Shown in pieces: positions 27,970 to 41,359 of a stretch of 64,000 bases of DNA. Both the position numbers and the translations under genes were made by a program. Numbering within the stretch: position 1 is the first letter of the stretch; every line of letters begins with the position of its first letter. The notes beneath the pieces were generated by a model that saw nothing but the letters and a program-made list of their open reading frames with translations, had not been told where the DNA came from and did no database searches. This DNA is from Deltaproteobacteria bacterium (GTDB lineage: Bacteria; Myxococcota; Kuafuiibacteriia; Kuafuiibacteriales; Kuafuiibacteriaceae), in assembly GCA_016703535.1 (NCBI GenBank), contig JADJBV010000001.1, forward strand, positions 6,382,270-6,446,269, written 5' to 3'.

Positions 27970-28610
27970 GACTTCTTCCCGGGTTCTCGCAGGCCGTTGG
28001 GCGTCACCACCCCGTGCATCCAATGATCGTCGGTCTGAACGTGACCGCGCCGCACCCACTTGGCCACGTGCTCCGAAAAGCGCGCGTACGGGAAGGCGCC
28101 GGCGCTGCGCACCACGTACCCTTCACAACGTTGGAGATCGAGCTTGAGGCTCCGGAGCCGGGCGTCGTCGTAGGGCCCTTCGTAGAGCGTCGGCACCAAC
28201 TCGAGGCCCAGCCGCATGGCCCAAGCCTTGGTCTCGGCCCACGACAAACAAGTGTTGGTCTCATCCCAGATCGAAAAGACAAAGAAGTAGCTGGCCAGAT
28301 CTTCGTACGCCACCGAATGCCGCGCGTAGAGATTTTCGCCGCAGACCCGAAACCCCGCCGGGATCTGGTAGCCGATCTCGCCCTGCAGCCGCTTCAGCCA
28401 ATCCCGGGACGGGTGGTGACGGCCATCCAGCGAGCGGGCGTGGAGCCCATCTTGGTAGAGGGTCGAGTTTTCGCCGTCGAGCTTTTCGGTGACCACCACC
28501 GGGGCCGACGACAAAGCCGCCGGGACCTCGGTGACCAGATCGTCGCTGCTGACCCCGGGAGACCAGGGCAGATGGGGCGTCCTAGGATACTTGAAGCGTT
28601 GGGTCGCCAT
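27966..28610 (-). CDS. ATP-dependent RNA ligase family protein
   Basis: The ORF track gives 27966..28643. The likely start is 'MATQRFKYPRTPHLPWSPG' at 28610. Covalent nucleotidyltransferase motif I is 'TEKLDGEN' (KxDG). Further motifs are 'VCGENLY', 'CEGYVVR' and 'VAKWVR'. Confidence 0.75.
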   Translation of the reverse strand: MATQRFKYPRTPHLPWSPGVSSDDLVTEVPAALSSAPVVVTEKLDGENSTLYQDGLHARSLDGRHHPSRDWLKRLQGEIGYQIPAGFRVCGENLYARHSVAYEDLASYFFVFSIWDETNTCLSWAETKAWAMRLGLELVPTLYEGPYDDARLRSLKLDLQRCEGYVVRSAGAFPYARFSEHVAKWVRRGHVQTDDHWMHGVVTPNGLREPGKKS

Positions 28611-28889
28611 GACCCACCTCCTTTGGCGGAGCCCAAGGCCCACGCCATCCCGCGATAGAGCATCGAGCGCAGAGCGGCTCGAAGGAACCGGGACCGAGGA
28701 GATTACATGGCGGAGGCTCGGAGAGATAAATAGGCTAAGCCAAGGCTCCGAAGGAGGTCAACCAGAGTTGCAGGACTTCAAGCTTCAGCGGACCAGAGAC
28801 CAACGACGACGATGGGATAGCAACCGGGTGGACCAGATCCGAGCGCTGGAAACGGCCAAACCCCCGCAGATCCCGGTGGCCACCAACAC

Positions 28890-29411
28890 CCGCCCTTCGA
28901 CCGGGCAAGGAGCCGCGCCTGCTGCCCGCGGAAGATGGCTTCCACGAAGACCCGCGCCATCGCCGCCAGGCCGTCTGCACGGACCGCCAACAACCCGACC
29001 AACTCCGAAGGCGGAGACAGAACGTACTGCCGAATCGGAACATCGGGGAACACACGCTCCACGAAGTGCGTCGCGACGTCGTCCATCCACCGCGCGCCGC
29101 AGCTCGGGCAGAGGCCGCGCCCTTTGGTCGCTCCGGCCATCCTGGCCTCTCGCGACACTTCCCGCGTCCTGTGGGTCGCACGAAAACGCCAGCGCCCGCT
29201 CCACTTGGCAGTCCGGGCAGCGCAGCCTGACGAAGCCCGCCTCGGGGACACCGCACACCAGGAACCGCTCCACTGCCCGGCCCACGAACTTGGGGATGGG
29301 GACCCCGGCCTCCTTGCTCTGCGCCACTAGCGCCGGCCACCAGCGCGTCACCAGTCGGTGCAGCACGCCCGAGCGCGGATCGCGAGCGGAGTAGCGCCGA
29401 GGACGATCCAC
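28890..29411 (-). mobile_element. IS91-family (rolling-circle Y2) transposase, 5' fragment only, frameshifted
   Basis: Two overlapping track ORFs (28785..29411 and 28778..29251) together read 'RYSARDPRSGVLHRLVTRWWPALV...FLVCGVPEAGFVRLRCPDCQVERALAFSC', then a frameshift, then 'KGRGLCPSCGARWMDDVATHFVERVFPDVPIRQYVLSPPSELVGLLAVRA...FRGQQARLLARSKGG'. This is the IS91 N-terminal zinc-binding domain. Family-like sequence stops at about 28890. Confidence 0.75.
28891..29039. repeat. Direct repeat copy 1 (~149 bp) shared by the two IS91 fragments
   Basis: Hand alignment: 'cgcccttcgaccgggcaaggagccgcgcctgctgcccgcggaagatggcttccacgaagacccgcgccatcgcc...caacaacccgaccaactccgaaggcggagacagaacgtactgccgaatcgga' against 39545..39692. 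They are near-identical except for about 15 substitutions and a 2-nt indel. Confidence 0.8.
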
Positions 29412-29465
29412 GCCAGGCCCGTAGGCCAGCCGCGTGCCCAGCCCCGGTGCTCATGGTTCGGACGA

Positions 29466-29503
29466 GATTCGTCCGGATTTCGCAGGACGTCCGGAATCCG
29501 GAC
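29466..29503. repeat. TCCGGA-rich motif block (gattcgtccggattt ... gtccggaAtccggac palindrome)
   Basis: Read directly. 'gtccggaatccggac' (29489-29503) is a perfect palindrome around a central base. It shares 'gattcgtccgga' with the array at 40312-40380. Confidence 0.6.
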
Positions 29504-29803
29504 GGACGCGGGTTACCGGTCGCGTGTGCAAGGGCGCGGCCTGCGGGCTCGGGAAGACCTGGGTCGGCCCACCGGCCCGCATCGAAAACGCGTGGCGCTG
29601 GCCGCTGATCGACGCGTCGCAGACCGCGCAAACCCACGCTTCGTCTGGGTCGTCGAAGCTGAGGGCCCCGGGCCGCTGCACCGCAGTGCCTCGCCCTGTG
29701 TTCGGCTGCGGCTCGAGGGCGAACATCGCTCGCCCTCGAGTCTACTCGGTTACTCGATCCCGGACAGCGCGCGCTGCGCCCGAGCCATGGCGAAGGGTAG
29801 CCC

Positions 29804-30148
29804 TTAGGGGACGAAGACCTCGACCCGATCGACCGCGCCGAAGGCCATCACCGAGGCTCCGCCCGGCACGTAGATCCGATCACCAATCGCCGCGGCGCCT
29901 GTCCCGTGCCGGCCGGTGGTCATCGGGCTCAAGCTTGACCACCGCTCGGTCTCAAAGCTCCAAGCCTCGACCGCGTCAAAGACCGCGCTGGCGGCGCCGG
30001 TGTTGCCTTCGCCGCCGAAGACGTAGAGCGCCTCGTTGAGGATCGCGGCGGCGGCGCCTCCTCGAGAGGTCGGCATCGGGGGCCCGGCGCTCCAGGTACC
30101 GGCGGTGGGATCGTAGAGGTCGAGCTGAGCGGTGTGCCCCGTGATGGG
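29804..30148 (-). pseudogene. Kelch-repeat protein gene, 3' fragment (5' end deleted at the island junction)
   Basis: Track ORF 29804..30076 reads 'LYVFGGEGNTGAASAVFDAVEAWSFETERWSSLSPMTTGRHGTGAAAIGDRIYVPGGAS'. Manual upstream extension keeps Kelch-like sequence ('GHTAQLDLYDPTAGTWSAGPPMPTSRGG') to about 30145, then 'FRRRPIT' and a stop. No start or N-terminal blades are present. Confidence 0.7.
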
Positions 30149-30217
30149 TCTCCTTCGGAAAAGGTTTCAAACACTTCGCCCGTGACATCGGCCGTCCGCC
30201 TCCTTGAAGTTGGGCTC

Positions 30218-31222
30218 ATGGATCTCAATCCGACTCGCCCCACTTTCGACTTCATCCCGATGGGGCCGGGCGCAGGCCCCTTGACGAGTCCCTCGACTTT
30301 CGACGACTCAAGAAGCATGTACATCGAAATGGTGCGGCAGGTCGTCGAGGAGGCGGTTGCTGTTCATGCGGCCGCGGAGAAGAAGACCATCTCCGATGTT
30401 CTGAAGGAAGTTCGCGAGCACATCGACGCAACAGCGAGGGAACATCAGAAGGACGAACCGGCAATCGACTATCAGAATGCGCTGTGTCGGCTTGGCTACC
30501 TCTACCGCCACGCTCCCGCAAACGCGACGTTGTTCGAGCGCGTCCTTCGTGATTGTCCAGACTTCCTGCTCAAGATTAAAGAACGCAACGGAGCGCGGTT
30601 GCACGTGTGCTCGGTTGGCGGGGGACCTGGCACCGAACTCCTTGGGCTCTCGAAGTTCTTACTCAGGCGGCCCGAGCTTGCGCCGAGCAAGATACAGTTC
30701 ACGGTGTTGGATCGGATCCCGCAATGGGCAGAGACCTGGCAGCGCCTGGCCGATGCCGTCGAGGACCAGTTCAAAAAAGCGCCGACGGGCGCCAAGCCGA
30801 GCATTGCTCCCTCGTTCCTGCCCATGGATGTGTGCGATCCGACCTCATACAAGAGCTACGCCTATCATTTCAGCACGGTCGACATTGTGGTCTTCAACTA
30901 CTTGTTCTCGGAGAACAAGACTCGCTTGGCGGCGGCAGCGGAAGCGGCCCGCCACTTGCTCAACTCCAGCCCGGTGGGTGCTTTGTTCCTATTCATCGAT
31001 CGCCACGAAGCAGACGGACAGCTCACAGAGGCCGTGAGAGCAATGATCCCGACGACTCCTCCTTGCACGGCCAACCTGTTTGGAGGGACGATCGATCGGG
31101 ACGAAGACCGGAAGGCGATGGGCGACATGTTGATGGGAGCTTTGGGCAACCCACGAGTGAAGTTCTTCACGGACAACTACCGTGACCCAACGGCTTTTTG
31201 GACGGCGATTCGGCGCACATGA
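30218..31222 (+). CDS. Class I SAM-dependent methyltransferase-like protein
   Basis: The ORF track gives 30134..31222. The start is placed at ATG 30218 ('MDLNPTRPTF'), just past the Kelch remnant. Motif I is 'LHVCSVGGGPGTELLGL', the post-I acidic residue is in 'FTVLDRI', and 'VDIVVFNYLFSE' follows. GC is lower and A/T-ending codons are more frequent than in the flanks. Confidence 0.65.
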   Translation: MDLNPTRPTFDFIPMGPGAGPLTSPSTFDDSRSMYIEMVRQVVEEAVAVHAAAEKKTISDVLKEVREHIDATAREHQKDEPAIDYQNALCRLGYLYRHAPANATLFERVLRDCPDFLLKIKERNGARLHVCSVGGGPGTELLGLSKFLLRRPELAPSKIQFTVLDRIPQWAETWQRLADAVEDQFKKAPTGAKPSIAPSFLPMDVCDPTSYKSYAYHFSTVDIVVFNYLFSENKTRLAAAAEAARHLLNSSPVGALFLFIDRHEADGQLTEAVRAMIPTTPPCTANLFGGTIDRDEDRKAMGDMLMGALGNPRVKFFTDNYRDPTAFWTAIRRT

Positions 31223-32142
31223 TCATCTCCGCCAGCTACAAGACTGACATCCCTGCGTTCTACGGAACGTGGTTTCGAAATCGCCTTCGTGCCGGGTTTT
31301 GCAAGACCGTCAATCCGCTCAATCGCGATCAGCACTCCACGATTTCACTGAAGCGGTCTGACGTCGAAAGCTACGTCTTCTGGACGAAGGGTCAGGGACC
31401 GTTCTTGCCGGTGCTCGATGAGCTGCATGAGGCTGGCTTCCCGTTCATCGTTCAGTACACGATAAACGGCTACCCTCGGGCTCTTGAAACGCGAGTTAGC
31501 GACTCGGATCGGGCCGTCGAACAAATGCAGGTGGTCTCACGTAGGTTCGGTCCCCGAGTAGCTGTCTGGCGCTACGACACCATCGTGCTCTCGTCATTGA
31601 CCGATTTCGCATTCCATCGAAGGAACTTCGAACGGCTTGCTGAAGCTCTCTCCGGAACAACGGACGAAGTCGTCGTCTCGTTTCTTCAGCTCTACCAGAA
31701 GACGAAGCGCAATCTCGACGAAGCCGGACGCGTGGAAGCGTTTGAATGGTGGGATCCAACGGTGGAAGAGAAGAGGGACCTGCTTTCTGCCCTGGCGCAG
31801 ATCGCTGCTTCAAATCGAATGCGACTCACCATTTGCACGCAACCGGACCTTGTCGTGGCCGGTGTCGGGGAGTCTCGCTGCATTGACGGTGAGCGCCTGA
31901 TGGACTTGGCCGGTGGACGATTCCCGGCGAAGGTCAAAGGCATGCGGGAGGGCTGCGGCTGCTACGAGTCGAAGGACATCGGCGACTACGACACGTGCCC
32001 ACATGGATGTGTCTACTGCTACGCCGTTCGCGATCGAGACCTCGCGCTGAATCGGTTTAAGGCTCACGATCCGGAAGGCGAGTACCTGTTTCCCGTTCAG
32101 CCCCCGAAGCCGGCGAGGCAGCTGCGGTTGTTCGGAGAGTAG
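31219..32142 (+). CDS. DUF1848-family protein (C-terminal Cys cluster, putative Fe-S)
   Basis: ATG 31219 ('MIISASYKTDIPAFYGTWFRNRL', the typical DUF1848 opening) overlaps the methyltransferase stop (ATGA). The C-terminal cluster is 'EGCGCYESKDIGDYDTCPHGCVYCYA'. Confidence 0.7.
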   Translation: MIISASYKTDIPAFYGTWFRNRLRAGFCKTVNPLNRDQHSTISLKRSDVESYVFWTKGQGPFLPVLDELHEAGFPFIVQYTINGYPRALETRVSDSDRAVEQMQVVSRRFGPRVAVWRYDTIVLSSLTDFAFHRRNFERLAEALSGTTDEVVVSFLQLYQKTKRNLDEAGRVEAFEWWDPTVEEKRDLLSALAQIAASNRMRLTICTQPDLVVAGVGESRCIDGERLMDLAGGRFPAKVKGMREGCGCYESKDIGDYDTCPHGCVYCYAVRDRDLALNRFKAHDPEGEYLFPVQPPKPARQLRLFGE

Positions 32143-32217
32143 TGCGGTCGCCCCCACGACCACTCAAGCTGGGTCGAACGCGAGGAGCGTCCTCAGGTGT
32201 GACCGCGGCTGTTACCG

Positions 32218-32307
32218 CCAGGGCGACTTCGAGCGACTTGGGTGGACAGCGTGAGACGCTCACCCTCAATGTTTGCGCGTATTTCCAAGTCGCTTCGGTC
32301 GCCCTGG
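32218..32307. other. Long imperfect inverted repeat in the 530-bp noncoding spacer between convergent DUF1848 and ThiC-like genes (possible bidirectional terminator or structured RNA)
   Basis: Left arm 'ccagggcgacttcgagcgacttgg' (32218-32241). Right arm 'ccaagtcgcttcggtcgccctgg' (32285-32307). The loop contains a nested hairpin 'agcgt-gag-acgct'. Confidence 0.3.
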
Positions 32308-32670
32308 CGCCTTTCCCAAGGTTGAAGTCGCGAGTTCGGTTCTCGTGTCCCGCTCTCGTATACCCCCGAAATCTTAGGTGGTTCGAACGACGCGCAGTCG
32401 CTTCGATCCCCCCATTTCGGTAGCTCCGAACCTCCGAACCCGGTCCTCCAGCGATGGAGCGGGGAGCGGGCGCGCTCCACGCTCGAGAAGTACAAGGGGT
32501 GGCGAGAACGGGATCGGGGAGGCGCAGACGATCGTCGCGGTGGGTGGTGCAAGCTACGTTGCGGCGCGGTTGTCGGCGCAGATTGGTGGGCCGGAGGGCA
32601 AGACGATCCTCGGCATCCGTCTACCCAAGCCCAGAACCTGTCGAGTTTTCGCAGGCCGTCCCGACTCAGA

Positions 32671-33726
32671 CTAAAGCGGACAGGTCGTCCCGCACCGAGA
32701 GCAGCCGGCCGTCTGCTTTCCGTCTACACAGGTTCGGTGTTCTGCTCGCCACTGCACAGCGGCCTCATCGGCCGCCGTCTCGTCTAGATTGTGCAGGTCA
32801 ATAATGTGGGCAGCGACCCGGGCCGCGCGAACCGCCTCCAGCGTGGATTCGAGGCTCGGGATGCCTCCTGTATGCTCCTCGCGCGTCACGGCCGCAAGCA
32901 CGTGGGCTGCTCCGTGAACACCCATCAGAGTGGCGCCGATAGCGGCCGACACATGGTCCTGTCCGTCCGCCGCGTCGGTAGGAATGGGGCCCAAGGGCAT
33001 GACTGGGAAGCCAGCAGGAGCTAGGATCGAAGCCACTCTCAGGATGTCCCGCGGTCGAGCATGACCAGGTGACTCAACAATCACGCTTGTTCCGCTTCGC
33101 ACGAGCTGTGAAGCGAGGTCCAACTGGGCCGCGATCTCTCCTAGTTGCGCTTCATCCAGCGAGTCAAAGATGTTCGCCGAGCGAAAGGACGCCCCGAGGC
33201 TCAGCGTCACGCCCCGGCGAGCTGCCTCCTCTGCCAGCTTCGGCATGATGTCCTGGTAAGCGTTGCCTCCGTCTCCGCGAAGTAGGAGGTCGTTGATGAC
33301 CAATCCGCCCCCTCGGGAAGTCCACGGAACACGTCGCCGACGCGCTAGGCGAACCAGCTCACGAGTCGGGGTCGGATGAATCGTCAGGAGGCCGGCACCT
33401 CGTTCCATCTGCTCGATGGCTCTATTGAGTAAGGCAGAACGATCAATCTGGCCCGATGTCGAGACAGCGGAATACACGGGCAACGTCGCGGCGACAAAGC
33501 CATATGAAACTATGCACTCCAGGAGCGGTTCGTTCGACGCAACAATCGATAGATCGGATACGATATCGGGACCGACTTCCATCTGTGCAAGCGCGTCAAT
33601 TTTTGCTCGCTGGGATCCGAAGTCGCGAATGTGGCTAGAGCCGACCAGGGCCATCACTGACGTTCGAATCCCAGGACCTACCGCGACGCTCGGGAGCGCT
33701 CGCCGCCCTAGCAAGGCAACAGTCAT
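32671..33726 (-). CDS. Minimal ThiC-like radical-SAM enzyme (HMP-P synthase/BzaF superfamily), 351 aa
   Basis: ATG 33726 ('MTVALLGRR') overlaps the stop of the SIR2-SLOG gene (ATGA). ThiC-core motifs occur in order: 'ATLPVYSA', 'GAGLLTIHPT', 'VPWTSRGGG', 'VTLSLGASFRSA', 'VIVESPGHARP', 'PVMPLGPIPTDAADGQDHVSAAIGATL' and 'LAAVTREEHTGGIP'. The C-terminal cluster 'CSRCGTTC' is CX2CX3C, against CX2CX4C in canonical ThiC. Confidence 0.8.
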   Translation of the reverse strand: MTVALLGRRALPSVAVGPGIRTSVMALVGSSHIRDFGSQRAKIDALAQMEVGPDIVSDLSIVASNEPLLECIVSYGFVAATLPVYSAVSTSGQIDRSALLNRAIEQMERGAGLLTIHPTPTRELVRLARRRRVPWTSRGGGLVINDLLLRGDGGNAYQDIMPKLAEEAARRGVTLSLGASFRSANIFDSLDEAQLGEIAAQLDLASQLVRSGTSVIVESPGHARPRDILRVASILAPAGFPVMPLGPIPTDAADGQDHVSAAIGATLMGVHGAAHVLAAVTREEHTGGIPSLESTLEAVRAARVAAHIIDLHNLDETAADEAAVQWRAEHRTCVDGKQTAGCSRCGTTCPL

Positions 33727-35096
33727 TTGAGGCTCGCTTCCACGCACCGAACCACGTCGGCAGCGCTGACACGGCCACTTCTCGCCTTTTCTAAGTAGGC
33801 TGGATCGATTTTCTGGAGCAGCCCGGCTACGCCCGGCTCATCGAGTTGCAGCGCGGCCAGACCCTTGCGTTGGATTGGCACAGGAACGATTTGGCACCGA
33901 TGGGCGCGCGCAACCTCCAGTTCCGCGGCCGTGCCCATGCCTCCATCAAACACAACCATCGTCCTGGCGGCGGCAAAGAGGCCTCCACGGTATCGCTTGA
34001 GATCGTCGAGGAGTGACCTGTCGTTTGAAAATGCAGGCCTTATTGCATAAGGATTCGGAAAAATCCTAATGCGCTGACGCAGGTCGGTTTGTCTTCGAAG
34101 GCAAGCATCGCCGAAAGCGTTGACGGCATGGCGGCCAATACCCTCGGACTGGCCGTCCAGAAGCACAATCGCCGGATCGATTTCGGAGAGCTTTGCTCCC
34201 ACCAGTGCCGCAAGGTCAGTCGCACGACGAGCAGCCTTATGCCCACCACTTACGAACACGGCCCGGTCCCGAGCTCGGAGGGCTAGATTGTCGAATACGT
34301 GCTGGATTTCATCGTATCCTTGGACGATCGCACAACGAATTCCAACCCGCATGAGATCCTCGGTCCAGAGTGCCTGGCGCTTCGCGTCTTCAGCACTGCT
34401 GGCTACCTTAAGCAGCATAAAATGTTCGCGAGTCGCGCGTTTGGCCAACCTCCTTGCTTGAACCAGCGCGGTTGAGATGCTGGAATCCCGATAGCCATAG
34501 CCAGCAAACAGGAAAGTTTTGTGGAGCAAGTCGTGCTGGAGGCGCTGCACAAAACTGGGCCGACGAGCCGCAAATTCCTCATAGTCGTCGGTCGTGATGA
34601 TGAGGTCGTTGGGCGAGCTTCGCTCGATGCATCCATGCACCTTCAGTATTTCAAAGTCATCAGCGAGGACATCCTGCGTAAAGTCTTGATCGTCAATCCG
34701 CACGACAACCCTCCGGTGTGCCATCGAGTCCTCAAGAAGACGATCGAAATTTGTGGTCCAGACGGTATCAATCGGAGTGAGCCGCAGGGCGGCGTGGTAG
34801 GAGTTTGGAAGAAGTCCGCGATTTAGCTTCGCTCTAAATGCCGCGACCAGGGGACCACGATTGCCCTTGTCGGCATTTACCAAATGCTGTGCGATCAACG
34901 GTAAGTCGTCGGTCTCCTTCAGGTCCAACCCGATCCGCCTCGCGTGCGGCTTCAATAGACCAAGCCAACTTGGCGCATTCGACTTGGCGGATATCCCGGA
35001 TCCCAAAAAGTACGCGCCCACACCGGCCGCGATTGCCTGAGCCATCCCATCAACCACGTAGGAGAGATCGACTCCAACCGACTTTGGTTCAGCCAT
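33723..35096 (-). CDS. ThsA-type SIR2-SLOG protein (Thoeris effector-like NADase architecture)
   Basis: The ORF track gives 33723..35132. ATG 35096 has a GGGAGA Shine-Dalgarno-like element about 10 nt upstream. SIR2_2-type motifs are 'AYFLGSGISAKSNAPSWLGLL', 'VWTTNFDRLLE' (catalytic Asn position) and 'EILKVHGC' (catalytic His position). The C-terminal SLOG/LOG-like Rossmann shows 'AVFVSGGHKAARR' and 'MVVFDGGMGTAAELEVA' (GGxGTxxE). Confidence 0.8.
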   Translation of the reverse strand: MAEPKSVGVDLSYVVDGMAQAIAAGVGAYFLGSGISAKSNAPSWLGLLKPHARRIGLDLKETDDLPLIAQHLVNADKGNRGPLVAAFRAKLNRGLLPNSYHAALRLTPIDTVWTTNFDRLLEDSMAHRRVVVRIDDQDFTQDVLADDFEILKVHGCIERSSPNDLIITTDDYEEFAARRPSFVQRLQHDLLHKTFLFAGYGYRDSSISTALVQARRLAKRATREHFMLLKVASSAEDAKRQALWTEDLMRVGIRCAIVQGYDEIQHVFDNLALRARDRAVFVSGGHKAARRATDLAALVGAKLSEIDPAIVLLDGQSEGIGRHAVNAFGDACLRRQTDLRQRIRIFPNPYAIRPAFSNDRSLLDDLKRYRGGLFAAARTMVVFDGGMGTAAELEVARAHRCQIVPVPIQRKGLAALQLDEPGVAGLLQKIDPAYLEKARSGRVSAADVVRCVEASLK

Positions 35097-35216
35097 TCCG
35101 TTTCGTCTCCCTCGCTGTTTGCGCCGGCTCATTGAACGTGACCGCCGTCTCCGTCCGCCCCATGCCTCTTCTGTTCAAACAGGCGCGACGAAATCTTAAA
35201 AGCAAGCGGTCACACA

Positions 35217-36050
35217 TCAAGTCGCAGTGCCAAAAAGCCCCAGTTGTTTCTCGGGAGGAATCGGGAGGACGCCGACGATCACCCACGGGTTGGGAGCGAC
35301 GAAATGGAACTGCTGCGTTGTTCCGAGGAAAAAGTGGAGATCGGTCTGCAGGAACTCGTCGAAGTACTTCTTGTGCACCTTGGCCAAGGCCGTTGGCTCG
35401 TCACCATTTGCGCGCCTGAGGCAGTTCCAGTAGAGCGCCCCTGCCTCCCAATCGAGCACTTGAAGATCGCTCTGCCGCCCTGCAGCGTCTTCGAACCGGT
35501 ACGTGAAACTATAGGGCAGCTTGTCGATGACCTTGAATGTCTCGCGCCAAGTGTTGTCCGCAAAGAGGTCATACTGCTTTGTCGCCTCGCGCATCTGCTT
35601 GACCCGCTCGGGGTCCCAAACACGCTCTTCGACTTCGGAGTAGAAATCCAGAATCTTTGATGGCCTGAACACTGCGAGTGACGCCGTGTTCGCTTTCGCA
35701 CTTGCGATCAAATCGTCTAAACGGTCGTAGACGCGAGCGGTTTCCAACAGGATACGCCTCCGTGCACCCCAATTGTTGCTAGTGTCGATGTGATCGACCG
35801 CGATCAGCTCGTGCTCATCAATTGGACGGAAGGTCTCCGGTCTCGGGTCGGATGGATTGCGAGCAAGGCGACACTCGAGCCAATCATACTTGTGGTACTG
35901 CTCTTTCTGATCCAGGCGCCGGAACGGAACCGGGTAGATGCGGACCCACGACCCATCTTCGCGGACTCCAGCAGTGCACACGGTCTCCCCGTACTTCCGG
36001 GACAGCGTTGGGTAGGTCTTGACCGTGATCAGGACACGCTCTTTGTTCAT
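35217..36050 (-). CDS. Hypothetical protein, 277 aa (no family recognised)
   Basis: Clean ORF with non-repetitive, balanced composition ('MNKERVLITVKTYPTLSRKYGETVCTAGVREDGSWVRIYPVPF...'). A GAGG sits 4-7 nt upstream of the ATG, inside the end of the preceding gene. The gap to the DUF488 gene is 6 nt. Confidence 0.65.
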   Translation of the reverse strand: MNKERVLITVKTYPTLSRKYGETVCTAGVREDGSWVRIYPVPFRRLDQKEQYHKYDWLECRLARNPSDPRPETFRPIDEHELIAVDHIDTSNNWGARRRILLETARVYDRLDDLIASAKANTASLAVFRPSKILDFYSEVEERVWDPERVKQMREATKQYDLFADNTWRETFKVIDKLPYSFTYRFEDAAGRQSDLQVLDWEAGALYWNCLRRANGDEPTALAKVHKKYFDEFLQTDLHFFLGTTQQFHFVAPNPWVIVGVLPIPPEKQLGLFGTAT

Positions 36051-36056
36051 CTCGCC

Positions 36057-36989
36057 TCAAAGGTCCGTCGCGTGAAGGTCCTTTCCGAATTGTCGTTCCA
36101 GCGCCTCGGCGACGCAATGTCGGTGACACTGGGCCGGTAGGTGTTCGTAGCAAGTAAGGGCGACGCGGTCACCCGCACGGAACCAATCGCGCAGCTTCTT
36201 CAGGGCGCTGGTCTGCTTCGGTAACCAGTCGCGCACATACTCCCTGAAGAGCGCGTCGTAATCGGCTTGGGTATCAAGACTCTGGCGCTTCTCGGACGCG
36301 ATGCCGAGTTCGGGAAGGTGCTCGTAGCGAATCCCGACCGCGTCGCAACCTCGTGCGAGGCTGTTCTTGGAGAAGCCATATTTGCGGCTGATCGGGTTGC
36401 GGCGGACATCGCACAAAATCGTGGTGCCGTTCTTCAGGAGGAGGTTGAGGTAGGTATCAAGCGAATGACCTTCGTAGCCAATCGTCTGAACTGACGCCCG
36501 TTTTTGATCGACTCGAAGGGCAGCTATCTGCTTGAGCGCTATCGCGTCCCCTTTCAGGACGCGGGCAGCGATCTCACTTCGGGTGGCGAAGTACGGAAAT
36601 CTCCGATACGTGTCGGCAACGAGCTCGTCACCTCGCAATTTTTGGTATCGACGCGCAAACGCCGCCATCTGCATGTCGATCGTGCGACCGATGACGCCGC
36701 GGCCTTCGTCAGTGAGCTGCCAGGTGCTCTCGTCGTTCACTAGCAGGCCGCGCTCAACGAGCTTTCGTCGATCGGCGTACGACATGAACGAGAAGGCTCC
36801 GAACTTGTGCGGGACAAAGTCGTAGGGCGCTTCGGACGGGGACTCTTGGCAGTACAGGAAGAGCAGCTTTTGGAAGTCCAGCTTGCTCGCTTGGCCACCG
36901 AGAGCGTCGAGCAGCTGCAAGAGCTGCCGCTGACGAGCGGGCAGCGTCGTCGCGGTCTTCTCCAATGGTCGGGCCCGAGCAGCGGTCAT
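36057..36989 (-). CDS. Two-domain protein: N-terminal helical/wHTH-like domain + C-terminal DUF488 (YeaO-like) domain
   Basis: The ORF track gives 36057..37304. The start is placed at ATG 36989 ('MTAARARPLEK'). The DUF488 part reads 'VQTIGYEGHSLDTYLNLLLKNGTTILCDVRRNPISRKYGFSK...IRYEHLPELG...VALTCYEHLPAQCHRHCVAEAL'. The N-terminal part reads 'KLDFQKLLFLYCQE...YDFVPHKFGAFSF...LVERGLLVNDESTWQLTDEG'. Confidence 0.7.
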   Translation of the reverse strand: MTAARARPLEKTATTLPARQRQLLQLLDALGGQASKLDFQKLLFLYCQESPSEAPYDFVPHKFGAFSFMSYADRRKLVERGLLVNDESTWQLTDEGRGVIGRTIDMQMAAFARRYQKLRGDELVADTYRRFPYFATRSEIAARVLKGDAIALKQIAALRVDQKRASVQTIGYEGHSLDTYLNLLLKNGTTILCDVRRNPISRKYGFSKNSLARGCDAVGIRYEHLPELGIASEKRQSLDTQADYDALFREYVRDWLPKQTSALKKLRDWFRAGDRVALTCYEHLPAQCHRHCVAEALERQFGKDLHATDL

Positions 36990-37150
36990 CAACGTTTCCC
37001 TTGGCGCTTGAGTTTGGGGGAAGCGGTGCGAGATGCTCGGCGATCTCGGGCATCTCGGTCGACCCTCACCCTGCCGAACCCTACCAGCGCGATCCGCTGG
37101 AAACAACTGGGCAATCGAGACGGGAGACACAGGCCAAGCTTCGATCGCAA

Positions 37151-37804
37151 TCAATCTGCAGCGTGAGGCGGTGGGTTCGCAGCGACTTGCCGGTGCTGTG
37201 CCTCGCGGATGCTCACCAGGCTCCGCCGGATGCAGGCGACCTCGCGCTCCCGGACGATTCGCGTCAGTTCGTCCGCGCGGTCGGGAAACTGTTGCGCTAT
37301 CCAAACAGCCCCATTCTCCCAGGCCCCGAGCTCCCGTGCCAGATCGATGGGAGCCGTGCGCACCGCTTCCCGTAGGTCGACGAAGCTTGCAGCAAGGTCT
37401 GGATGAACTCGTTCAAGCTCAGACCAGGCGGCGTCAAAGGTCCGCGCGCCTTGATGTGCCGGCTTGAATCCTTGAAGGAGGTGGCCAAACTCGTGGAGCA
37501 GGTCCGCGATGATCTCCTGTGCACCTGAGGGCGGGGCGGCGTGAAGGTAGATCTTGCTCTGGTCCCACGACACCTTGCTCGTGGCACGAGGGTCCTTGAA
37601 AGGCCGCATCGACCAAACTTGTGCTCGCCAGCTCCGAGGATCCCAGATTCCAGCTGCCGCAAGCTCCGCGTCGCTGACATCCGCAGATTTCCGTTCTCCG
37701 ACGACTTCGATTTCACGTTGGAGGGTGGTTAGCTCAGCCTCGAAGCGCTGGAGGTCGGGGACGTTCTCGAACAGCCTGTTTCGAATCTCGGCGGACGTGG
37801 CCAT
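37151..37804 (-). CDS. Hypothetical protein with HExxH zinc-metallopeptidase-like motif
   Basis: 217 aa. 'IIADLLHEFGHLLQG' contains HEFGH. No signal peptide is present. Its GC is closer to the host than the rest of the island. Confidence 0.5.
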   Translation of the reverse strand: MATSAEIRNRLFENVPDLQRFEAELTTLQREIEVVGERKSADVSDAELAAAGIWDPRSWRAQVWSMRPFKDPRATSKVSWDQSKIYLHAAPPSGAQEIIADLLHEFGHLLQGFKPAHQGARTFDAAWSELERVHPDLAASFVDLREAVRTAPIDLARELGAWENGAVWIAQQFPDRADELTRIVREREVACIRRSLVSIREAQHRQVAANPPPHAAD

Positions 37805-37871
37805 TGGAGCATTCTAGAGCCCCTAAGGCGGTGGTGCCCAGGCCGGAATCGAATCGCTTGTCCGGTTTGGG

Positions 37872-38438
37872 TCACCTGCAAGCGCGAGCGGTAGCTGGTT
37901 CCTTGAGAAGATCGTCGCGCCGCTGCTTGGCGATCGGCGTCCATTTCGCCAAAAAGCCGGGTAGGTCTTCGTCAAGAAGGACATCAATGCCGACTGAGGA
38001 TGCTCCAATCCCGGCCAACTCGTTCGTGACGCGCGCTGACGCCGAATTTAAAGCCGCTCGCTTGGTTGAGTTCATCTTCGTGACAGTCTTTCCCCACGGT
38101 TCTCCGTTCGGTCCGACCTGGAACAACACAGTCGCCAACACTGGAGCGCCGAGTCGCGCCATGACCGACAGGCTAGCCGCGTCTTTCACAAGACTCGTCG
38201 TCACACCAACCCCTTCAACCTCGAATGCGGCAACCGGGATCCACAACGGAGATTCGGCAGTCGCGCCTCTCAACGCCCAGATCACGTCAATCGCGTAGTT
38301 CCTATCAGTCCCGAACACGTTGAACTCAGGGACGGCATGAAGGTCAAGGTCGACGCCTGCCTGGCAGAGTCGAGCGCAAACCTCGTGCTTCGACATCGCA
38401 AGTTCGCTCAATCCCGCATGTTGACCGAGCGCGTTCAT
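37872..38438 (-). CDS. Hypothetical protein, 188 aa, possible PD-(D/E)xK nuclease-like core
   Basis: Only the 3' 188 codons of track ORF 37872..39263 look protein-like ('MNALGQHAGLSELAMSKHEV...YAIDVIWALRG...PVAAFEVEGVGVTTSLVKD...'). The upstream part of the ORF is Arg/Pro/Ser junk overlapping the IS91 fragment. The D...E-x-E pattern is only suggestive. Confidence 0.45.
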   Translation of the reverse strand: MNALGQHAGLSELAMSKHEVCARLCQAGVDLDLHAVPEFNVFGTDRNYAIDVIWALRGATAESPLWIPVAAFEVEGVGVTTSLVKDAASLSVMARLGAPVLATVLFQVGPNGEPWGKTVTKMNSTKRAALNSASARVTNELAGIGASSVGIDVLLDEDLPGFLAKWTPIAKQRRDDLLKEPATARACR

Positions 38439-38715
38439 CGCTAATGAAGGAGAGCATCCCTCGACCGGTGCAGAGGAAGCAACGGGCCAGAGGCTGGGGC
38501 GAATAGGAAACTCAAGGGTGGTTGCCGGGGCCACCTCCGCTTGGATCGAGCCGCCATATAGGGATACCTCCCCTGGATGGCAGGACCTACTTGAACGCCG
38601 GTGAGGGGTCGAATGGGGGTCTGTGGTGGGGTTGAGGGGCGCTTCCTGGGGCGCAGGACGAGCCTCGGCCTCGCGAGGATGCTCGCCTTCAAGGCCCGGG
38701 GCGGAGCTGTGGTGC

Positions 38716-39692
38716 TCAGTTCGCGAGTGGGAGAGCTTGTTGCGGCCCGGGCGGGCCGGTGCTCTCCACCGGCACGAACTGGTTTCGACGCAAGGTCCTG
38801 GGGCAGCGGGGGCAGGAATGGCCGTTGACCTCGTAGACGCGGGCCAAGAGCTTCGCCCACGCTTCGCGATACGGCACTGGCGTTGCCGGCTCGAACTTCC
38901 GAGCCCCGAACCACGCGCCTTGCACCGCCACCCAGCCTGCTGGCACCACCTGCGGTCGAAGCCGCGCGGCCGGCGCCAGCACCCCGAAGGCGCGGATCTG
39001 ATGCTGCCGCGGGGGAGGCACCAGCCAGGCCAGGCGCCGGAGCAACGAGAGCGGATGCAGCAGCAGCTCCTGCTGCGTGGTGCGCGTCGGGCGGCGGAGC
39101 GTGAACCGCGCCTGCGCCTCGTCGATGAGCTCGAGCTGGGCCTCCGCGAACGGCGGCCGGGCGGCGTAGCGCACGAGCTGGGCGCGACCGGCGCGGTCGT
39201 CGGCGCCGACCCGCACGCTCGCGTTGACCTCGAAGCGACCTCGGAGCTTCTTCGGCTCCACACTGACGATCCCTACGGCGCACGGGCCGCCGTTGGCCAC
39301 CACGGGTCGTCGGGCCGGCCCTCGGCGCCCTCCTCGAGATACCCATGGCGACGCAGCCACCCCAAAAACCGAAGCTCCACCTCGTCCTCGAGGGCCCCAC
39401 GCTCTCCGGCCGAGGGGCCTTGGTCCTGGCGGAATTCTAGCGTGCCGACGTCCTCCTCCAAGTAGCCGCCGTCGAGCACCCGCACGTGCAGGTGCGGATA
39501 GACCGAAAGCGTCTTCGTGAACCGCTGCACGAACGCCACCGCCCCGCCCTTCGACCGGGCAAGGGGCCGCGCTGCTGCCCGCGGAAGATGGCTTCTACGA
39601 AGACCCGCGCCATCGCCTCCTGGGCGTCGGCACGGGCCGCCAACAACCCGACCAACTCCGAAGGCGGCGACAGAACGTACTACCGAATCGGA
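38716..39692 (-). mobile_element. IS91-family transposase, 3' fragment (catalytic/C-terminal part), multiply frameshifted and lacking the N-terminal zinc-binding domain
   Basis: The pieces from track ORFs 39437..39655, 39273..39743 and 38716..39360 read 'LVGLLAARADAQEAMARVFVEAIFRGQQ', 'ARSKGGAVAFVQRFTKTLSVYPHLHVRVLDGGY...' and 'VRYAARPPFAEAQLELIDE...LLHPLSLLRRLAWLVPPPRQHQIRAFGVLAPAA...WAKLLARVYEVNGHSCPRCP...'. At 39692 the fragment is fused to an unrelated 54-codon ORF start (39693-39852, 'MSKTKRIKRDRPPV...'). Confidence 0.75.
39545..39692. repeat. Direct repeat copy 2 (~148 bp) matching 28891..29039
   Basis: See copy 1. Same orientation, roughly 90 percent identity by hand alignment. Confidence 0.8.
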
Positions 39693-39940
39693 GGTAGGCG
39701 TCGATCTCGCCCGCCAGATCCTGGAGCGATCGGCAGGTGCCACGGCGGAGCAGCCGGTCGAGGTGAAAGACGCCGTCCATCAGGCGTCGCCTGCCGGCGA
39801 CTCGGGCGGATACCGGGGGGCGGTCCCGCTTGATTCGCTTCGTCTTGCTCACGCCAAGCTCCCAGCCATCCCTTGGGGGAAGCTCTTGTCATGAGACCCT
39901 GGGGCAGGAGCAATGTCGGGAACCCAGTTCGGTGGCCGAG

Positions 39941-40284
39941 TTGGGTCCAGGTACTCAGGATAGTTGGGCGGGCGCAGGTCCGCGGATCCAAGCGACCCAC
40001 TCCGTAGTGCCTTCGGCGGGTCCGGGGACCTCGACAAAGCGGTCTCGAGTCGGTGCGGGGACCTGCCTCGACCCGAGCTCGGCGTCTATCGACTGGGTTT
40101 TTGGGTCCGCCCAGGCGGCCGAGCCACTGTGGAGTCTGGGTGGAGGATAAAAGTGGAGGGCCGAGGACCCGTCGCGGCGTCTGAATTGAGTCCCGGGACC
40201 CGAAGAAGGCACTGCGGAGTGGCTTCGTTGGGTCCCGGGACCCAGGCCGGATCACCTCGACCCAACCGGGTTGGGTCCGGGGAC
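39941..40284. repeat. Cluster of at least 6 copies of a TTGGGTCC(C/G)GGGAC-like motif, including a perfect 14-bp palindrome gggtcccgggaccc (40230-40243) and cccaaccGggttggg (40261-40275)
   Basis: Motif instances read at about 39941, 40018, 40101, 40188, 40230 and 40271. 'ggggacct(gc)ctcgac' also occurs twice (40024, 40057). No convincing ORF covers the region. Confidence 0.55.
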
Positions 40285-40311
40285 TGCTTAAAACGCTGTG
40301 AGTCGACGGGT

Positions 40312-40380
40312 GTCCGGATTCGTCCGGATTCGTCCGGATTCGTCCGGACGATTTGTCCGGCCGGACGAACGCCGGACGCC
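40312..40380. repeat. Helically phased TCCGGA array: 3 perfect tandem 10-bp units (gtccggattc) followed by the gtccggccggac palindrome and further ccggacg units
   Basis: Read directly: gtccggattc gtccggattc gtccggattc gtccggacgatttgtccggccggacgaacgccggacgcc. The 12-bp perfect palindrome lies at 40355-40366. Confidence 0.75.
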
Positions 40381-40414
40381 GCGGATCCCGAAGGTGCAGT
40401 GATTCCGCAGGAGG

Positions 40415-41359
40415 ATGTCCGGCACGCGGCTTGAAGATGGGTTCGGCATGACCTCGGACACGGAGTCCGAGCTCCAACCTATGAGGAGATTGACCATGTC
40501 GAACGAACTGGTGTCGCCCAGGTACTTCCAACTTCCGCCACTGGACGCCCCGGGGACCGTGGCGATGGCGACGAGCACCTTGGCATCGGCGCCGAAGGCA
40601 GCGCCGCCCGCGGTAAAGAAGGCCCTCAAGAAGGTGGCGTCAACGCTGGCCGAGATGAAGGAGGTGCTGGCGGGCGAGCCGATCGCGATGCCCGACGTGA
40701 GCCGGGCCGCCGACCTGTCCCTCGATCGTTCCTGGGGTGGCCTGAGCGGTCGGATCAGCAGCTACACTTTCCTGCCCGAAGACCTGTACCCCAAGGTGTC
40801 CACCGCGAATGAGTTGATGCGGACCCTGTTCCCCGATGGCTTGAGCTTCCTCAAGTTGCCCTACCGGCAGGAGTGGGCCGAGAGCGAAAGGCGCCTGGAG
40901 CGGATCGAGATGATGGGCTTGGAGGCCAAAATCCACGAGGTCGCTGGGCGTGATCACCTGGAGGAGGTGCGTCGGGCCCACCGGGTGTACGGCGAGGTCT
41001 TGGGCATCACCCGACCGAACCCTCTGGCTCAGGCCCCCGAACGCGCCGAGAAGCTGCGGGCGCTGCGCAAGGCTCTGAACCACTACGTGTTGAATCTGCT
41101 CGCTTGCCTGGACGAGGAAGATCCAGAGACCGAGGAGATGGTCCGGCGCGCCCTCCAGCCCATCGACGAGTTTCGCGCGGCGGCGCCCGGGCGGCGGTCG
41201 GCGAGTGACGACGACGGCCCGGAGACCGAAGTGCCCCCCGTCGCTTCACCCGTGGTGGCTTCACCGCCGCCTGTCGCGGTCGGCGGCGGCGCTGCGCCGA
41301 TCGCTCCCAGCCCGGCTCCGATCCCGGTGCGCTCGACCCCTACGGATGCCCCGAGCTGA
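40415..41359 (+). CDS. Hypothetical protein with Pro/Ala-rich C-terminus
   Basis: 314-aa ORF. The central part is non-repetitive ('LYPKVSTANELMRTLFPDGLSFLKLPYRQEWAESERRLERIEMMGLEAKIHEV'). The true start is uncertain, with internal Met at 'MSNELV'. Confidence 0.5.
   Translation: MSGTRLEDGFGMTSDTESELQPMRRLTMSNELVSPRYFQLPPLDAPGTVAMATSTLASAPKAAPPAVKKALKKVASTLAEMKEVLAGEPIAMPDVSRAADLSLDRSWGGLSGRISSYTFLPEDLYPKVSTANELMRTLFPDGLSFLKLPYRQEWAESERRLERIEMMGLEAKIHEVAGRDHLEEVRRAHRVYGEVLGITRPNPLAQAPERAEKLRALRKALNHYVLNLLACLDEEDPETEEMVRRALQPIDEFRAAAPGRRSASDDDGPETEVPPVASPVVASPPPVAVGGGAAPIAPSPAPIPVRSTPTDAPS

What the first reader, a model, noticed from the sequence alone, without database searches (positions are those of the whole stretch)
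28778..39852. Two complementary, overlapping IS91-family transposase fragments in direct orientation but permuted order flank the island
Seen in sequence:
- Fragment 1 (28890-29411) carries only the N-terminal zinc-binding part through '...FRGQQARLLARSKGG'.
- Fragment 2 (38716-39692) starts at '...IRQYVLSPPSELVGLLA' and carries the rest of the transposase to its C-terminus.
- The two fragments share a ~149-bp direct repeat of roughly 90 percent identity (28891-29039 and 39545-39692).
- Both are on the minus strand, yet the N-terminal piece lies downstream of the C-terminal piece. They are therefore not a single gene split by an insertion.
- Both fragments are frameshifted.
- Fragment 2 is fused at 39692 to an unrelated 54-codon ORF start.

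Established knowledge: IS91/ISCR elements transpose by rolling-circle replication and can co-mobilise adjacent DNA when termination fails.

Inference: this is the scar of tandem or one-ended IS91 transposition followed by deletions. It would have delivered or reshuffled the ~9-kb segment between the copies. The 149-bp repeat could still support recombinational excision of the whole segment.
Basis: partly seen in the sequence, partly recalled or inferred. Interest (0 to 1): 0.5.

Follow-up and report, generated by a model that had tools for sequence, protein, structure and literature searches.

The report
Dead IS91-like copies bracket defence island
Two broken, long-dead copies of one rolling-circle insertion sequence flank a 9-kb block of anti-phage genes, and sister strains suggest that one copy carried the block in and landed exactly at the end of the other, which is an ordinary but well-documented case of IS91/ISCR-type gene capture.

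Summary
Two minus-strand pseudogene fragments of one IS91/ISCR-like transposase share a 151-bp direct repeat at 92% identity (28889-29039 and 39543-39692). They lie in permuted order around a low-GC block. Both map collinearly onto intact or near-intact relatives, so they are two separate copies of one IS lineage.

Copy 2 (38497-39692) keeps an intact oriIS-type right end, '...TTTCCTATTCGCCC', at 38497. Copy 1 (28889-~29508) keeps the 5' side and has lost about 1.05 kb of its 3' part, including its oriIS.

Two related metagenome contigs are 99-100% identical in the neighbouring gene. They carry copy 2 with the same 5' junction, but a type I restriction-modification system replaces everything from 38496 down to 28893. 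So copy 1, a Kelch gene remnant and the 8.35-kb defence island (ThsA-like, PDC-M19, DUF1848) form one indel unit. That unit starts exactly at copy 2's oriIS terminus.

This geometry fits one-ended rolling-circle delivery by copy 1, followed by a microhomology deletion. It does not fit one tandem event that made both copies. The N/C complementarity is incidental. The repeat is a poor recombination substrate, with a longest identical run of 31 bp. This is a known kind of element and of modest interest.

The parts
28878..28892 (-). Junction of copy 1 with the conserved flank. On the minus strand the flank begins CGGGTGTTGGTGGCC, which resembles the IS-internal sequence CGGGGCGGTGGCG (39546-39534). 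This is the inferred microhomology used to delete copy 1's 3' part.
   Evidence: Homology between L012 nt 3-32 and window 28863-28892 (29/30) stops here. Sequence comparison.
28889..29508 (-). IS copy 1. It has the 5' (terIS-side) region, the Zn_Tnp_IS91 domain and the inter-domain linker, and is truncated at 28889. About 1.05 kb of 3' sequence, including the oriIS end, is missing.
   Evidence: Pfam 6e-15. Collinear with L001 (92%), L005 (78%) and L011 (93%). No right-end sequence lies downstream.
28889..29039 (-). Direct repeat 'O', the copy inside fragment 1. It encodes the linker between the Zn-binding and Y2 catalytic domains.
29126..29177 (-). 52-nt insertion that disrupts the zinc-binding motif of copy 1. 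Its last ~17 nt are shared with the upstream junction of the copy in L011.
29466..29508 (-). Palindrome GTCCGGATTCCGGAC plus TCCGGACGAATC, just upstream of copy 1. It is either a terIS-type subterminal palindrome or co-mobilised flank; this is unresolved.
   Evidence: The same motif lies upstream of homologues of gene 40496-41359 that have no IS nearby.
29804..30140 (-). High-GC remnant (C-terminal ~112 aa) of a Kelch-repeat gene, cut off at the island border. It is annotated as IPG45_25840.
   Evidence: Pfam Kelch_1 1e-12; translation; P0131 is 100% identical
30146..38496 (.). 8.35-kb low-GC (0.595) defence island. It contains a methyltransferase-like gene, DUF1848, a ThiC-like radical SAM gene, a ThsA-like SIR2-STALD gene, PDC-M19B, PDC-M19A (DUF488) and two unknown genes.
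   Evidence: Absent from L012/L013.
38497..39692 (-). IS copy 2. It has the linker, the Y2_Tnp catalytic domain (stop codon 38718-38716) and a 220-bp tail that ends in the oriIS-type terminus TTTCCTATTCGCCC (38510-38497). It is 5'-truncated at 39692.
   Evidence: Pfam 4e-23. Homology with L002, L011 and L013 all ends at 38497/8. A plasmid-borne IS91-family element (pW2; its closest named relatives among the hits are ISPps1) has the same terminal motif ~190 bp after its stop codon.
39543..39692 (-). Direct repeat 'O', the copy inside fragment 2. It contains a TAG codon at 39682-39680 and a 1-nt deletion.
39693..40316 (.). 624 bp of non-IS, host-like DNA (GC 0.667) with clustered GGTCCC(C/G)GGACCC palindromes. 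It also holds the start of the spurious 85-codon ORF 39595-39852. The junction with copy 2 is shared with L012/L013.
40317..40371 (.). Three tandem TCCGGACGAA units plus the palindrome GTCCGGCCGGAC. This is most likely the upstream activator region of the neighbouring gene, which has a sigma-54-like GGCAC-N5-TTGA at 40421. It is not an IS left end.
40496..41359 (+). Conserved neighbouring gene (287 aa, IPG45_25895, no Pfam family). It anchors the comparison with L006 and L012-L015.

Best explanation
These are two separate, long-inactive copies of one IS91/ISCR-like rolling-circle element.

**Copy 2** is an old resident next to gene 40496-41359. It lost its first ~470 bp at a GTTC site but kept an intact oriIS terminus at 38497.

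**The block 28893-38496** arrived as a single unit. It consists of an 8.35-kb defence island, a Kelch gene remnant and copy 1. It begins at the last base of copy 2's oriIS end and finishes with copy 1. Copy 1 is oriented with its terIS side towards the cargo and its (now missing) oriIS side towards the conserved flank.

**Inferred mechanism**
1. One-ended rolling-circle transposition started at copy 1's oriIS and failed to stop at terIS.
2. It carried about 9 kb of upstream DNA.
3. It inserted at the cleavage site beside a resident oriIS.
4. Copy 1's 3' 1.05 kb was then deleted between CGGGGCGGTGGC (inside the IS) and CGGGTGTTGGTGGC (in the flank). If the R-M haplotype is ancestral, the R-M genes were lost in the same deletion.

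**Shown:** the anatomy, the ends and the strain comparison. **Inferred:** the transposition and deletion steps. The N/C complementarity and the 150-bp overlap are accidental by-products.
For: - **Same lineage.** The copies are 92% identical and share derived states against L001 and L005. Both are collinear with intact L005 and near-intact L001 and L011.
- **oriIS end defined.** Three independent comparisons (L002, L011, L013) all lose homology at 38497/8. A plasmid-borne IS91-family element (pW2) carries the same TTTCCTAT(T/C)C terminus about 190 bp after its stop codon.
- **GC step.** GC drops from 0.70 to 0.595 at that base.
- **Strain comparison.** L012 and L013 are 99-100% identical in the neighbouring gene and share copy 2's 5' junction. 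They hold a type I R-M system with no IS91 sequence in place of 28893-38496.
- **Other boundary.** L012 homology resumes at 28863-28892, exactly at copy 1's break, where the flank resembles the IS-internal sequence.
- **Position of copy 1.** It sits at the very edge of the unit in the one orientation that one-ended transposition predicts.
- **Literature.** IS91-family termination fails in 1-14% of events. Whole donor plasmids and up to 40 kb can be moved, and insertion places oriIS beside the target site (PMC13181058).
Against: - Copy 1's oriIS end is gone, so the predicted RE1|flank junction cannot be seen.
- The bases next to the oriIS ends (CAGC, CGCG, TCGA, GCGC) are not the canonical CTTG/GTTC target.
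- It is not known which haplotype (R-M or ThsA island) is ancestral.
- The flank match in L012 is only 30 nt, because the locus was cut at the flank limit.
- The copy 2 alleles of the window and L013 differ by 7% while adjacent genes are 99-100% identical. The cassettes have therefore been swapped between strains by homologous recombination, which could account for the pattern without any IS activity.
- No intact transposase above 90% identity exists among the roughly 5.8 billion searched proteins.
- The left end is not precisely defined.
Confidence: 0.55

Rival explanations
1. Passive passengers in a defence hot spot. The two copies inserted independently into a variable region where insertions are tolerated, and each decayed through unrelated deletions. 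The island and the R-M system are alternative cassettes exchanged between strains by homologous recombination through the conserved flanks. The IS played no part in delivery.
For: - There is a clear recombination signature. Gene 40496-41359 is 99-100% identical between the window and L013, but the adjacent copy 2 remnant is only 92.8% identical. That is as far apart as copies at other loci.
- Remnants of this IS lineage sit inside lower-GC accessory DNA in other contigs too (L002, next to a DUF7226/AAA ATPase gene, and L011).
- The copies form a star phylogeny, with no shared derived change uniting the two window copies.
- A second variable boundary lies at about 42050-42139.
Against: - It does not explain why the cargo starts at the exact terminal base of the oriIS end.
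- It does not explain why copy 1 lies at the extreme edge of the indel unit in the single orientation expected for one-ended transposition. A rough estimate of this arising by chance is 5-10%.
- It needs two insertions and two deletions.
Confidence: 0.3
2. One event made both copies. In it, longer-than-unit rolling-circle replication of a circular donor, or a tandem duplication, produced IS-cargo-IS. It ended prematurely at an internal GTTC, which created the 5'-truncated left copy, and the right copy was later truncated at its 3' end.
For: - One-ended transposition of a whole donor plasmid is documented (PMC13181058).
- Fragment 2's 5' break lies at GATGTTC|CGATTCGG. The tetranucleotide there is GTTC in this lineage and GTCC in relatives, and both are known IS91-family cleavage or target sites.
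- 5'-truncated copies with intact right ends recur: the window's copy 2, L002 and L011.
- Another MAG (L003) has two direct copies 4.4 kb apart plus a solo right end.
Against: - L012 and L013 have copy 2 with the same 5' junction but neither copy 1 nor the island. Either copy 2 predates the cargo, or an extra exact replacement must be assumed.
- The two copies share no derived change that excludes L011.
Confidence: 0.1
3. Campbell-type integration. A circle carrying an intact transposase gene plus the island recombined through the 150-bp stretch with a resident 150-bp remnant. This would give O-C...cargo...N-O without any deletions.
For: The permuted order with a flanking direct repeat is formally what this produces.
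Against: - It needs a pre-existing isolated 150-bp remnant.
- L012/L013 instead show a resident copy that extends from O through the C-part to the oriIS end.
- The derived substitutions are interleaved along the repeat rather than falling into two blocks.
- The right boundary of the repeat coincides with a flank microhomology.
Confidence: 0.03

Closest known systems
IS91 / IS801 / IS1294 (IS91 family, HUH Y2 rolling-circle transposases)
   Same: - Zn_Tnp_IS91 plus Y2_Tnp domain architecture with an HLH (HUH) motif.
- Two different ends instead of inverted repeats.
- A right end about 200 bp after the stop codon with a conserved ...TTTCCTAT(T/C)C terminus.
- No target-site duplication visible.
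- Cargo on the terIS side of copy 1, as in one-ended transposition.
   Different: - Only about 34% amino-acid identity to plasmid-borne family members.
- Scores fall below the NCBIfam IS91 cut-off, at 87 against 125 bits.
- The bases flanking oriIS are not CTTG/GTTC.
- No orf121.
- Both copies are dead.
- The host is an uncultured 'Deltaproteobacteria bacterium' MAG with 66% GC.
ISCR elements (for example ISCR1 in complex class 1 integrons, or ISCR2 units)
   Same: - The best NCBIfam hit is ISCR clade Ia, at 2e-58.
- Variable cargo lies immediately beyond the oriIS end of a resident, 5'-defective copy.
- Different cargos sit at the same oriIS boundary in different strains, as with the variable regions next to ISCR1.
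   Different: - The score is far below the clade cut-off, at 198 against 925 bits.
- The cargo is anti-phage defence genes in a chromosome, not resistance genes on plasmids or integrons.
- No duplicated 3'-CS-type segment is present. The only duplication is the 150-bp piece of the transposase gene itself.
Defence-island hot spots with cassette exchange between strains
   Same: Alternative defence systems (a ThsA-like gene with PDC-M19 versus a type I R-M system) sit between the same conserved flanks in strains that are 99-100% identical nearby.
   Different: One border of the hot spot is the exact terminus of an IS91-like oriIS end, and one cassette carries a second copy of that IS at its other edge.

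Membership tests
IS91/ISCR superfamily (rolling-circle IS) | N-terminal zinc-binding domain (PF14319) | tested here: met
   Fragment 1 scores 6e-15 and 55 bits against a cut-off of 26.3. The domain is interrupted by a 52-nt insertion.
IS91/ISCR superfamily (rolling-circle IS) | Y2_Tnp HUH catalytic domain (PF04986) | tested here: met
   Fragment 2 scores 4e-23 and 83 bits against a cut-off of 20.9. The motif YPHLHVRVLDGG is present.
IS91/ISCR superfamily (rolling-circle IS) | Passes the curated NCBIfam family thresholds (transpos_IS91 equivalog; ISCR clade Ia) | tested here: not met
   87 bits against a cut-off of 125, and 198 bits against a cut-off of 925. The intact relative P0003 also fails. 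This is a distant branch of the superfamily, not a member of either curated family.
IS91/ISCR superfamily (rolling-circle IS) | oriIS-type right end, meaning a conserved terminus downstream of the transposase gene | tested here: met
   Copy 2 ends ...CCCTTGAGTTTCCTATTCGCCC at 38497. Homology to L002, L011 and L013 stops there. L003 (three ends), L005 and the IS91-family element on plasmid pW2 share the CCTAT(T/C)C terminus. Copy 1 lacks it.
IS91/ISCR superfamily (rolling-circle IS) | terIS-type left end with a subterminal palindrome | tested here: inconclusive
   The palindrome GTCCGGATTCCGGAC at 29489-29503 lies upstream of copy 1. The same motif family also occurs upstream of homologues of gene 40496-41359 where no IS91 is present (L009).
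IS91/ISCR superfamily (rolling-circle IS) | Target tetranucleotide (CTTG/GTTC/GTCC) abutting oriIS, and no target-site duplication | tested here: not met
   The flanks are CAGC (window), CGCG (L013), TCGA (L002) and GCGC (L011). No duplication is seen at the ends, which is consistent with the family but not diagnostic.
IS91/ISCR superfamily (rolling-circle IS) | Demonstrated rolling-circle transposition activity | not testable with these tools
   Both copies are pseudogenes. No intact copy above 90% identity was found.
One-ended-transposition (ISCR-type capture) unit | Cargo contiguous with the terIS side of an IS copy, with the whole unit present or absent as one block | tested here: met
   28893-38496 (copy 1 + Kelch remnant + island) is one indel relative to L012/L013.
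One-ended-transposition (ISCR-type capture) unit | The unit ends in a functional oriIS abutting target DNA | tested here: not met
   Copy 1's 3' part and its oriIS are absent. Their loss through the CGGG...GGTGGC microhomology is inferred, not shown.
One-ended-transposition (ISCR-type capture) unit | The same IS-plus-cargo unit found in a second, unrelated context | not tested
There was no plasmid match.

The most novel reading that the evidence does not exclude
The oriIS end of a dead ISCR-like element acts, or once acted, as a docking point for defence-gene cassettes. Otherwise near-identical strains carry either a ThsA-like/PDC-M19 island or a type I R-M system, each starting at the same terminal base. 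One cassette still carries the IS copy that brought it. If so, ISCR-type rolling-circle capture would be a route for building and exchanging anti-phage islands in Myxococcota-like bacteria, comparable to the role of ISCR1 'common regions' for resistance genes.
Probability: 0.3. Interest if true: 0.55.

Novelty: new member of a known kind. Interest (0 to 1): 0.33.

Why it matters
IS91/ISCR elements are known mainly as capturers of antibiotic-resistance genes on proteobacterial plasmids. In this case a distant member, in the chromosome of an uncultured deltaproteobacterial MAG, is linked to anti-phage defence genes. A natural comparison shows different cargo at the same oriIS base in sister strains. 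If the delivery model holds, rolling-circle capture also applies to defence-island turnover. The case also shows that 'complementary' IS fragments can arise from independent breakpoints. The elements are long dead, so there is no ongoing mobility to exploit.

Tried and rejected
- **Collection scans.** Scans of genome contigs and metagenome contigs with the reconstructed transposase returned only 50-55% relatives.
- **Exact look-ups.** Look-ups of window proteins (the 277-aa PDC-M19B protein and P0131) found no indexed contig.
- **A natural HTH-Y2_Tnp variant for fragment 2?** Rejected. P0043 and P0047 are chimeric ORFs created by IS21 insertions.
- **The 40317-40371 motif as copy 2's left end?** Rejected after the same repeats were found upstream of homologues of the neighbouring gene in L007, L009 and L010. 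L009 has no IS91 within 8 kb.
- **att-like repeats at the island borders.** None of 10 bp or longer.
- **A right end hidden downstream of fragment 1.** None found.
- **A pseudo-oriIS at the start of the repeat (GTTCCGATTCGGC, 3 mismatches).** Not above chance: 14 hits against 10 expected.
- **Rfam on 26-42 kb.** No hit.
- **tRNA genes.** None in the window.
- **Plasmid megablast of 28600-40500.** No match.
- **Kelch-remnant homologues as an empty-site probe.** These gave only the source protein and relatives at 61% identity or lower on short contigs.

Full report

Yes. The repeat finder reports a direct repeat split by a 1-nt indel: 28889-28918 / 39543-39572 at 97% and 28919-29039 / 39572-39692 at 93%. 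blastn gives 148/161 identities, E = 3e-61.

Three-frame translation and Pfam show what each fragment carries:
- The minus-strand stretch 29393-28889 encodes the Zn_Tnp_IS91 domain (6e-15).
- The minus-strand stretch 39691-38719 encodes the Y2_Tnp catalytic domain (4e-23), including YPHLHVRVLDGG.

Both are pseudogenes:
- Fragment 1 carries a 52-nt insertion (29126-29177) inside the zinc-binding motif.
- Fragment 2 carries an in-frame TAG (39682-39680), a 1-nt deletion inside the repeat, further indels and a 15-codon deletion.

The '54-codon ORF' (39595-39852) crosses the junction out of frame and matches nothing. The shared 150 bp encodes the linker between the two Pfam domains.

**2. What family is it, and are these one lineage?**

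The reconstructed protein hits NCBIfam ISCR clade Ia (2e-58) and transpos_IS91 (1e-24). Both scores are below the curated cut-offs. Plasmid-borne relatives annotated as IS91 family (some named ISPps1) are about 34% identical. It is therefore a distant IS91/ISCR-superfamily element.

The best intact relatives among the roughly 5.8 billion searched proteins are about 70% identical (P0001-3). No intact copy above 90% identity exists.

Both window fragments map collinearly, with an overlap, onto three references:
- intact L005;
- L001, which is contiguous N-O-C and then interrupted by IS21;
- L011, which holds a 356-aa ORF.

In the shared 157 nt, the two window fragments are 92.4% identical. They share derived states against L001 and L005, so the 'different subfamilies' refutation fails. 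However, each is at least as close to L011 from another metagenome (93.7% and 94.9%), and no derived change unites the two against L011.

Their differences are 3 synonymous changes, 6 non-synonymous or nonsense changes and 1 indel. That pattern is what neutral decay gives.

**3. The ends of the element**

*Right end.* Homology of copy 2 to L002, L011 and L013 stops at the same base in all three. The element ends ...CCCTTGAGTTTCCTATTCGCCC at 38497. The same CCTAT(T/C)C terminus closes three ends in L003 and one in L005. It also lies about 190 bp after the stop codon of the IS91-family element on plasmid pW2. This is an oriIS-type right end. GC falls from 0.70 to 0.595 at that base.

*Copy 1.* It has no right end. 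Nothing downstream of 28889 resembles it.

*Left side of copy 1.* Homology to L001 and L005 reaches 29460-29474. A palindrome, GTCCGGATTCCGGAC, plus TCCGGACGAATC lies at 29466-29508.

*A rejected left end for copy 2.* I first took a similar motif at 40317-40371 to be copy 2's left end. The same tandem repeats and palindrome occur about 120-150 bp upstream of homologues of gene 40496-41359 in L007, L009 and L010, each followed by a conserved TGGCAC-N5-TTGAA. L009 has no IS91 within 8 kb. At 40317 the motif is therefore that gene's upstream region. Why a related motif sits beside copy 1, and at the start of the L001 contig, is unexplained.

**4. What lies between the copies**

Reading along the minus strand:
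1. copy 2's oriIS end (38497);
2. an 8.35-kb low-GC island (38496-30146);
3. a high-GC stretch holding the last ~112 codons of a Kelch-repeat gene (30140-29804), cut off at the island border;
4. copy 1.

The island encodes:
- a ThsA-like SIR2-STALD protein (PADLOC 5e-66);
- PDC-M19A and PDC-M19B (1e-100 and 1e-108);
- DUF1848;
- a ThiC-like radical-SAM protein;
- a methyltransferase-like protein;
- two proteins of unknown function.

There are no att-like repeats at the island borders and no tRNA gene in the window. None of the island ORFs matched an integrase or recombinase family, although two of them remain without any family assignment.

**5. The decisive comparison**

The window comes from an NCBI MAG labelled 'Deltaproteobacteria bacterium' with IPG45_ locus tags. 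The identical 287-aa neighbour protein occurs on two long JGI contigs, L012 and L013.

Against the window:
- 39671-42139 is 97.5% identical overall, and 99-100% across the genes.
- This block includes copy 2's 5' junction (...CC|GATTCGG), so that truncation is ancestral.
- Copy 2's C-part is only 92.8% identical. That is as divergent as copies at other loci.
- L013 has its own 351-bp internal deletion.
- Homology ends exactly at the oriIS terminus. The window reads ...GAGGCTG|GGGCGAATAGG and L013 reads ...CATCGCG|GGGGCGAATAGG.
- Beyond that point, L012 and L013 carry a type I R-M system (HsdM/S/R and a YgjP-like gene, GC 0.64-0.65) with no IS91 sequence at all.
- L012 homology to the window resumes at 28863-28892 (29/30). 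That is exactly where fragment 1 breaks off.

So 28893-38496, comprising copy 1, the Kelch remnant and the island, is a single indel unit. On the minus strand the flank begins CGGGTGTTGGTGGCC, which resembles the IS-internal sequence CGGGGCGGTGGCG at the same point of the gene (39546-39534).

**6. Most likely mechanism (inferred)**

IS91-family elements start transfer at oriIS and stop at terIS. Termination fails in 1-14% of events, and DNA beyond terIS is then carried along. This can include whole donor plasmids and up to 40 kb. Insertion places oriIS next to the target site (PMC13181058).

A one-ended product of copy 1, inserted at the cleavage site beside resident copy 2's oriIS, would give: copy 2 oriIS | cargo - terIS - copy 1 - oriIS | flank. 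The observed structure matches this, apart from copy 1's missing 3' part. The imperfect repeat CGGG..GGTGGC offers a simple deletion path for that loss. If the R-M haplotype is ancestral, the same deletion removed the R-M genes.

Two features support this. Copy 1 sits at the very edge of the unit in the one predicted orientation. The cargo also begins at the exact oriIS base. I put this explanation at about 0.55.

**7. Rival explanations**

(a) *Passive passengers in a recombination-driven hot spot* (0.3). The jump from 99-100% to 93% identity shows that cassettes have moved between strains by homologous recombination. This IS lineage also sits in low-GC accessory DNA elsewhere. This rival does not explain the exact oriIS boundary or the position of copy 1.

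(b) *One event made both copies* (0.1). In its favour, fragment 2's break lies at a GTTC/GTCC site. In addition, 5'-truncated copies with intact right ends recur. Against it, copy 2 exists without copy 1 in L012 and L013.

(c) *Campbell-type integration through the 150 bp* (0.03). This is disfavoured by the resident copy seen in L012/L013 and by the interleaved substitutions.

**8. Recombination potential of the repeat**

The repeat is 151 bp at 92% identity. Its longest perfect run is 31 bp. From general knowledge of RecA-dependent recombination, that is close to the shortest usable length. Excision is conceivable but should be rare. No solo-repeat allele was seen among the contigs retrieved.

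**9. Verdict**

This is a distant, extinct member of a known kind of element (IS91/ISCR rolling-circle IS with one-ended capture). It is of modest interest because the cargo is a defence island and because a natural strain comparison shows alternative cargos docked at the same oriIS base.

Noticed in passing
window 30146-38496: The low-GC island is a defence island. It holds a ThsA-like SIR2-STALD gene (33723-35132) with no recognisable TIR ThsB partner. That gene overlaps a ThiC-like radical-SAM gene (32671-33747) by 25 nt. The island also holds a DUF1848 gene (PADLOC RT-associated model) without a reverse transcriptase, a Methyltransf_34-like gene, PDC-M19A/B, and two proteins (37151-37804 and 37872-38441) with no family. 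The ThsA/ThiC-like pairing may be worth its own study.
   Followed up: partly
L012 33-8463; L013 1-8320: Related strains that are 99-100% identical in the neighbouring gene carry a type I restriction-modification system (HsdR/S/M and a YgjP-like gene) at the same position, beside the same oriIS end, in place of the ThsA/PDC-M19 island. In L012 the last ~150 bp of the IS tail are also replaced.
   Followed up: partly
window 40317-40440; L007 1-110; L009 1240-1350; L010 1-100: Homologues of the hypothetical gene 40496-41359 are rare: only 10 proteins at E <= 1e-5. All have tandem 10-bp TCCGGACGAA units plus a GTCCGG(N)CCGGAC palindrome upstream, followed by a conserved TGGCAC-N5-TTGAA. This looks like a sigma-54 promoter with an activator site. 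The repeat block is inverted relative to the gene in L009 and L010. A 64% paralogue (IPG45_28650) is in the same MAG. Several assemblies break at this motif.
   Followed up: partly
window 40018-40285: A cluster of GGTCCC(C/G)GGACCC palindromes and ~55-68-nt inverted and direct repeats. There are 7 matches against 1.2 expected, and nearly all fall in this 270-bp stretch. Function unknown.
   Followed up: partly
L003 3453-3564, 5513-7235, 9898-11561: Another Deltaproteobacteria MAG has two directly oriented IS91-family copies 4.4 kb apart at 85-89% identity, plus a solo oriIS-type end. This suggests that direct clusters are common for this group.
   Followed up: partly
window 29126-29177; L011 ~640-662: The last ~17 nt of the 52-nt insertion that disrupts copy 1 (GGAT..CCGGAGCGACC) are shared with the upstream junction of the L011 copy. 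The two copies may therefore descend from an already damaged ancestor, or a small element once sat at this site.
   Followed up: partly
window 28889-29039 / 39543-39692: Both breakpoints fall within 0-7 residues of Pfam domain borders, so the 150-bp overlap equals the inter-domain linker. This is probably coincidence, given that both fragments are otherwise damaged.
   Followed up: partly
window 26668-28643: An RNA ligase (PF09414) gene overlaps an HD-domain plus AAA_33 kinase gene. The pair has slightly lower GC3 than the surrounding genes, lies directly beside the variable region, and may itself be accessory.
   Followed up: no
L001 918-3371; proteins P0043, P0047: IS21 (IstA/IstB) has inserted into IS91-type copies at the ...RPDD(P/G)WW position in other metagenomes. 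This created chimeric ORFs that look like HTH-Y2_Tnp fusions.
   Followed up: partly
window ~42050-42139: Identity to L012/L013 collapses here as well. The two-gene block 40496-42084 is therefore a conserved islet between two variable regions.
   Followed up: no
L002 2539-4209: Another 5'-truncated copy of this IS lineage has its oriIS end abutting lower-GC DNA that encodes a DUF7226 + AAA_21/AAA_15 ATPase, a type of gene associated with defence.
   Followed up: no
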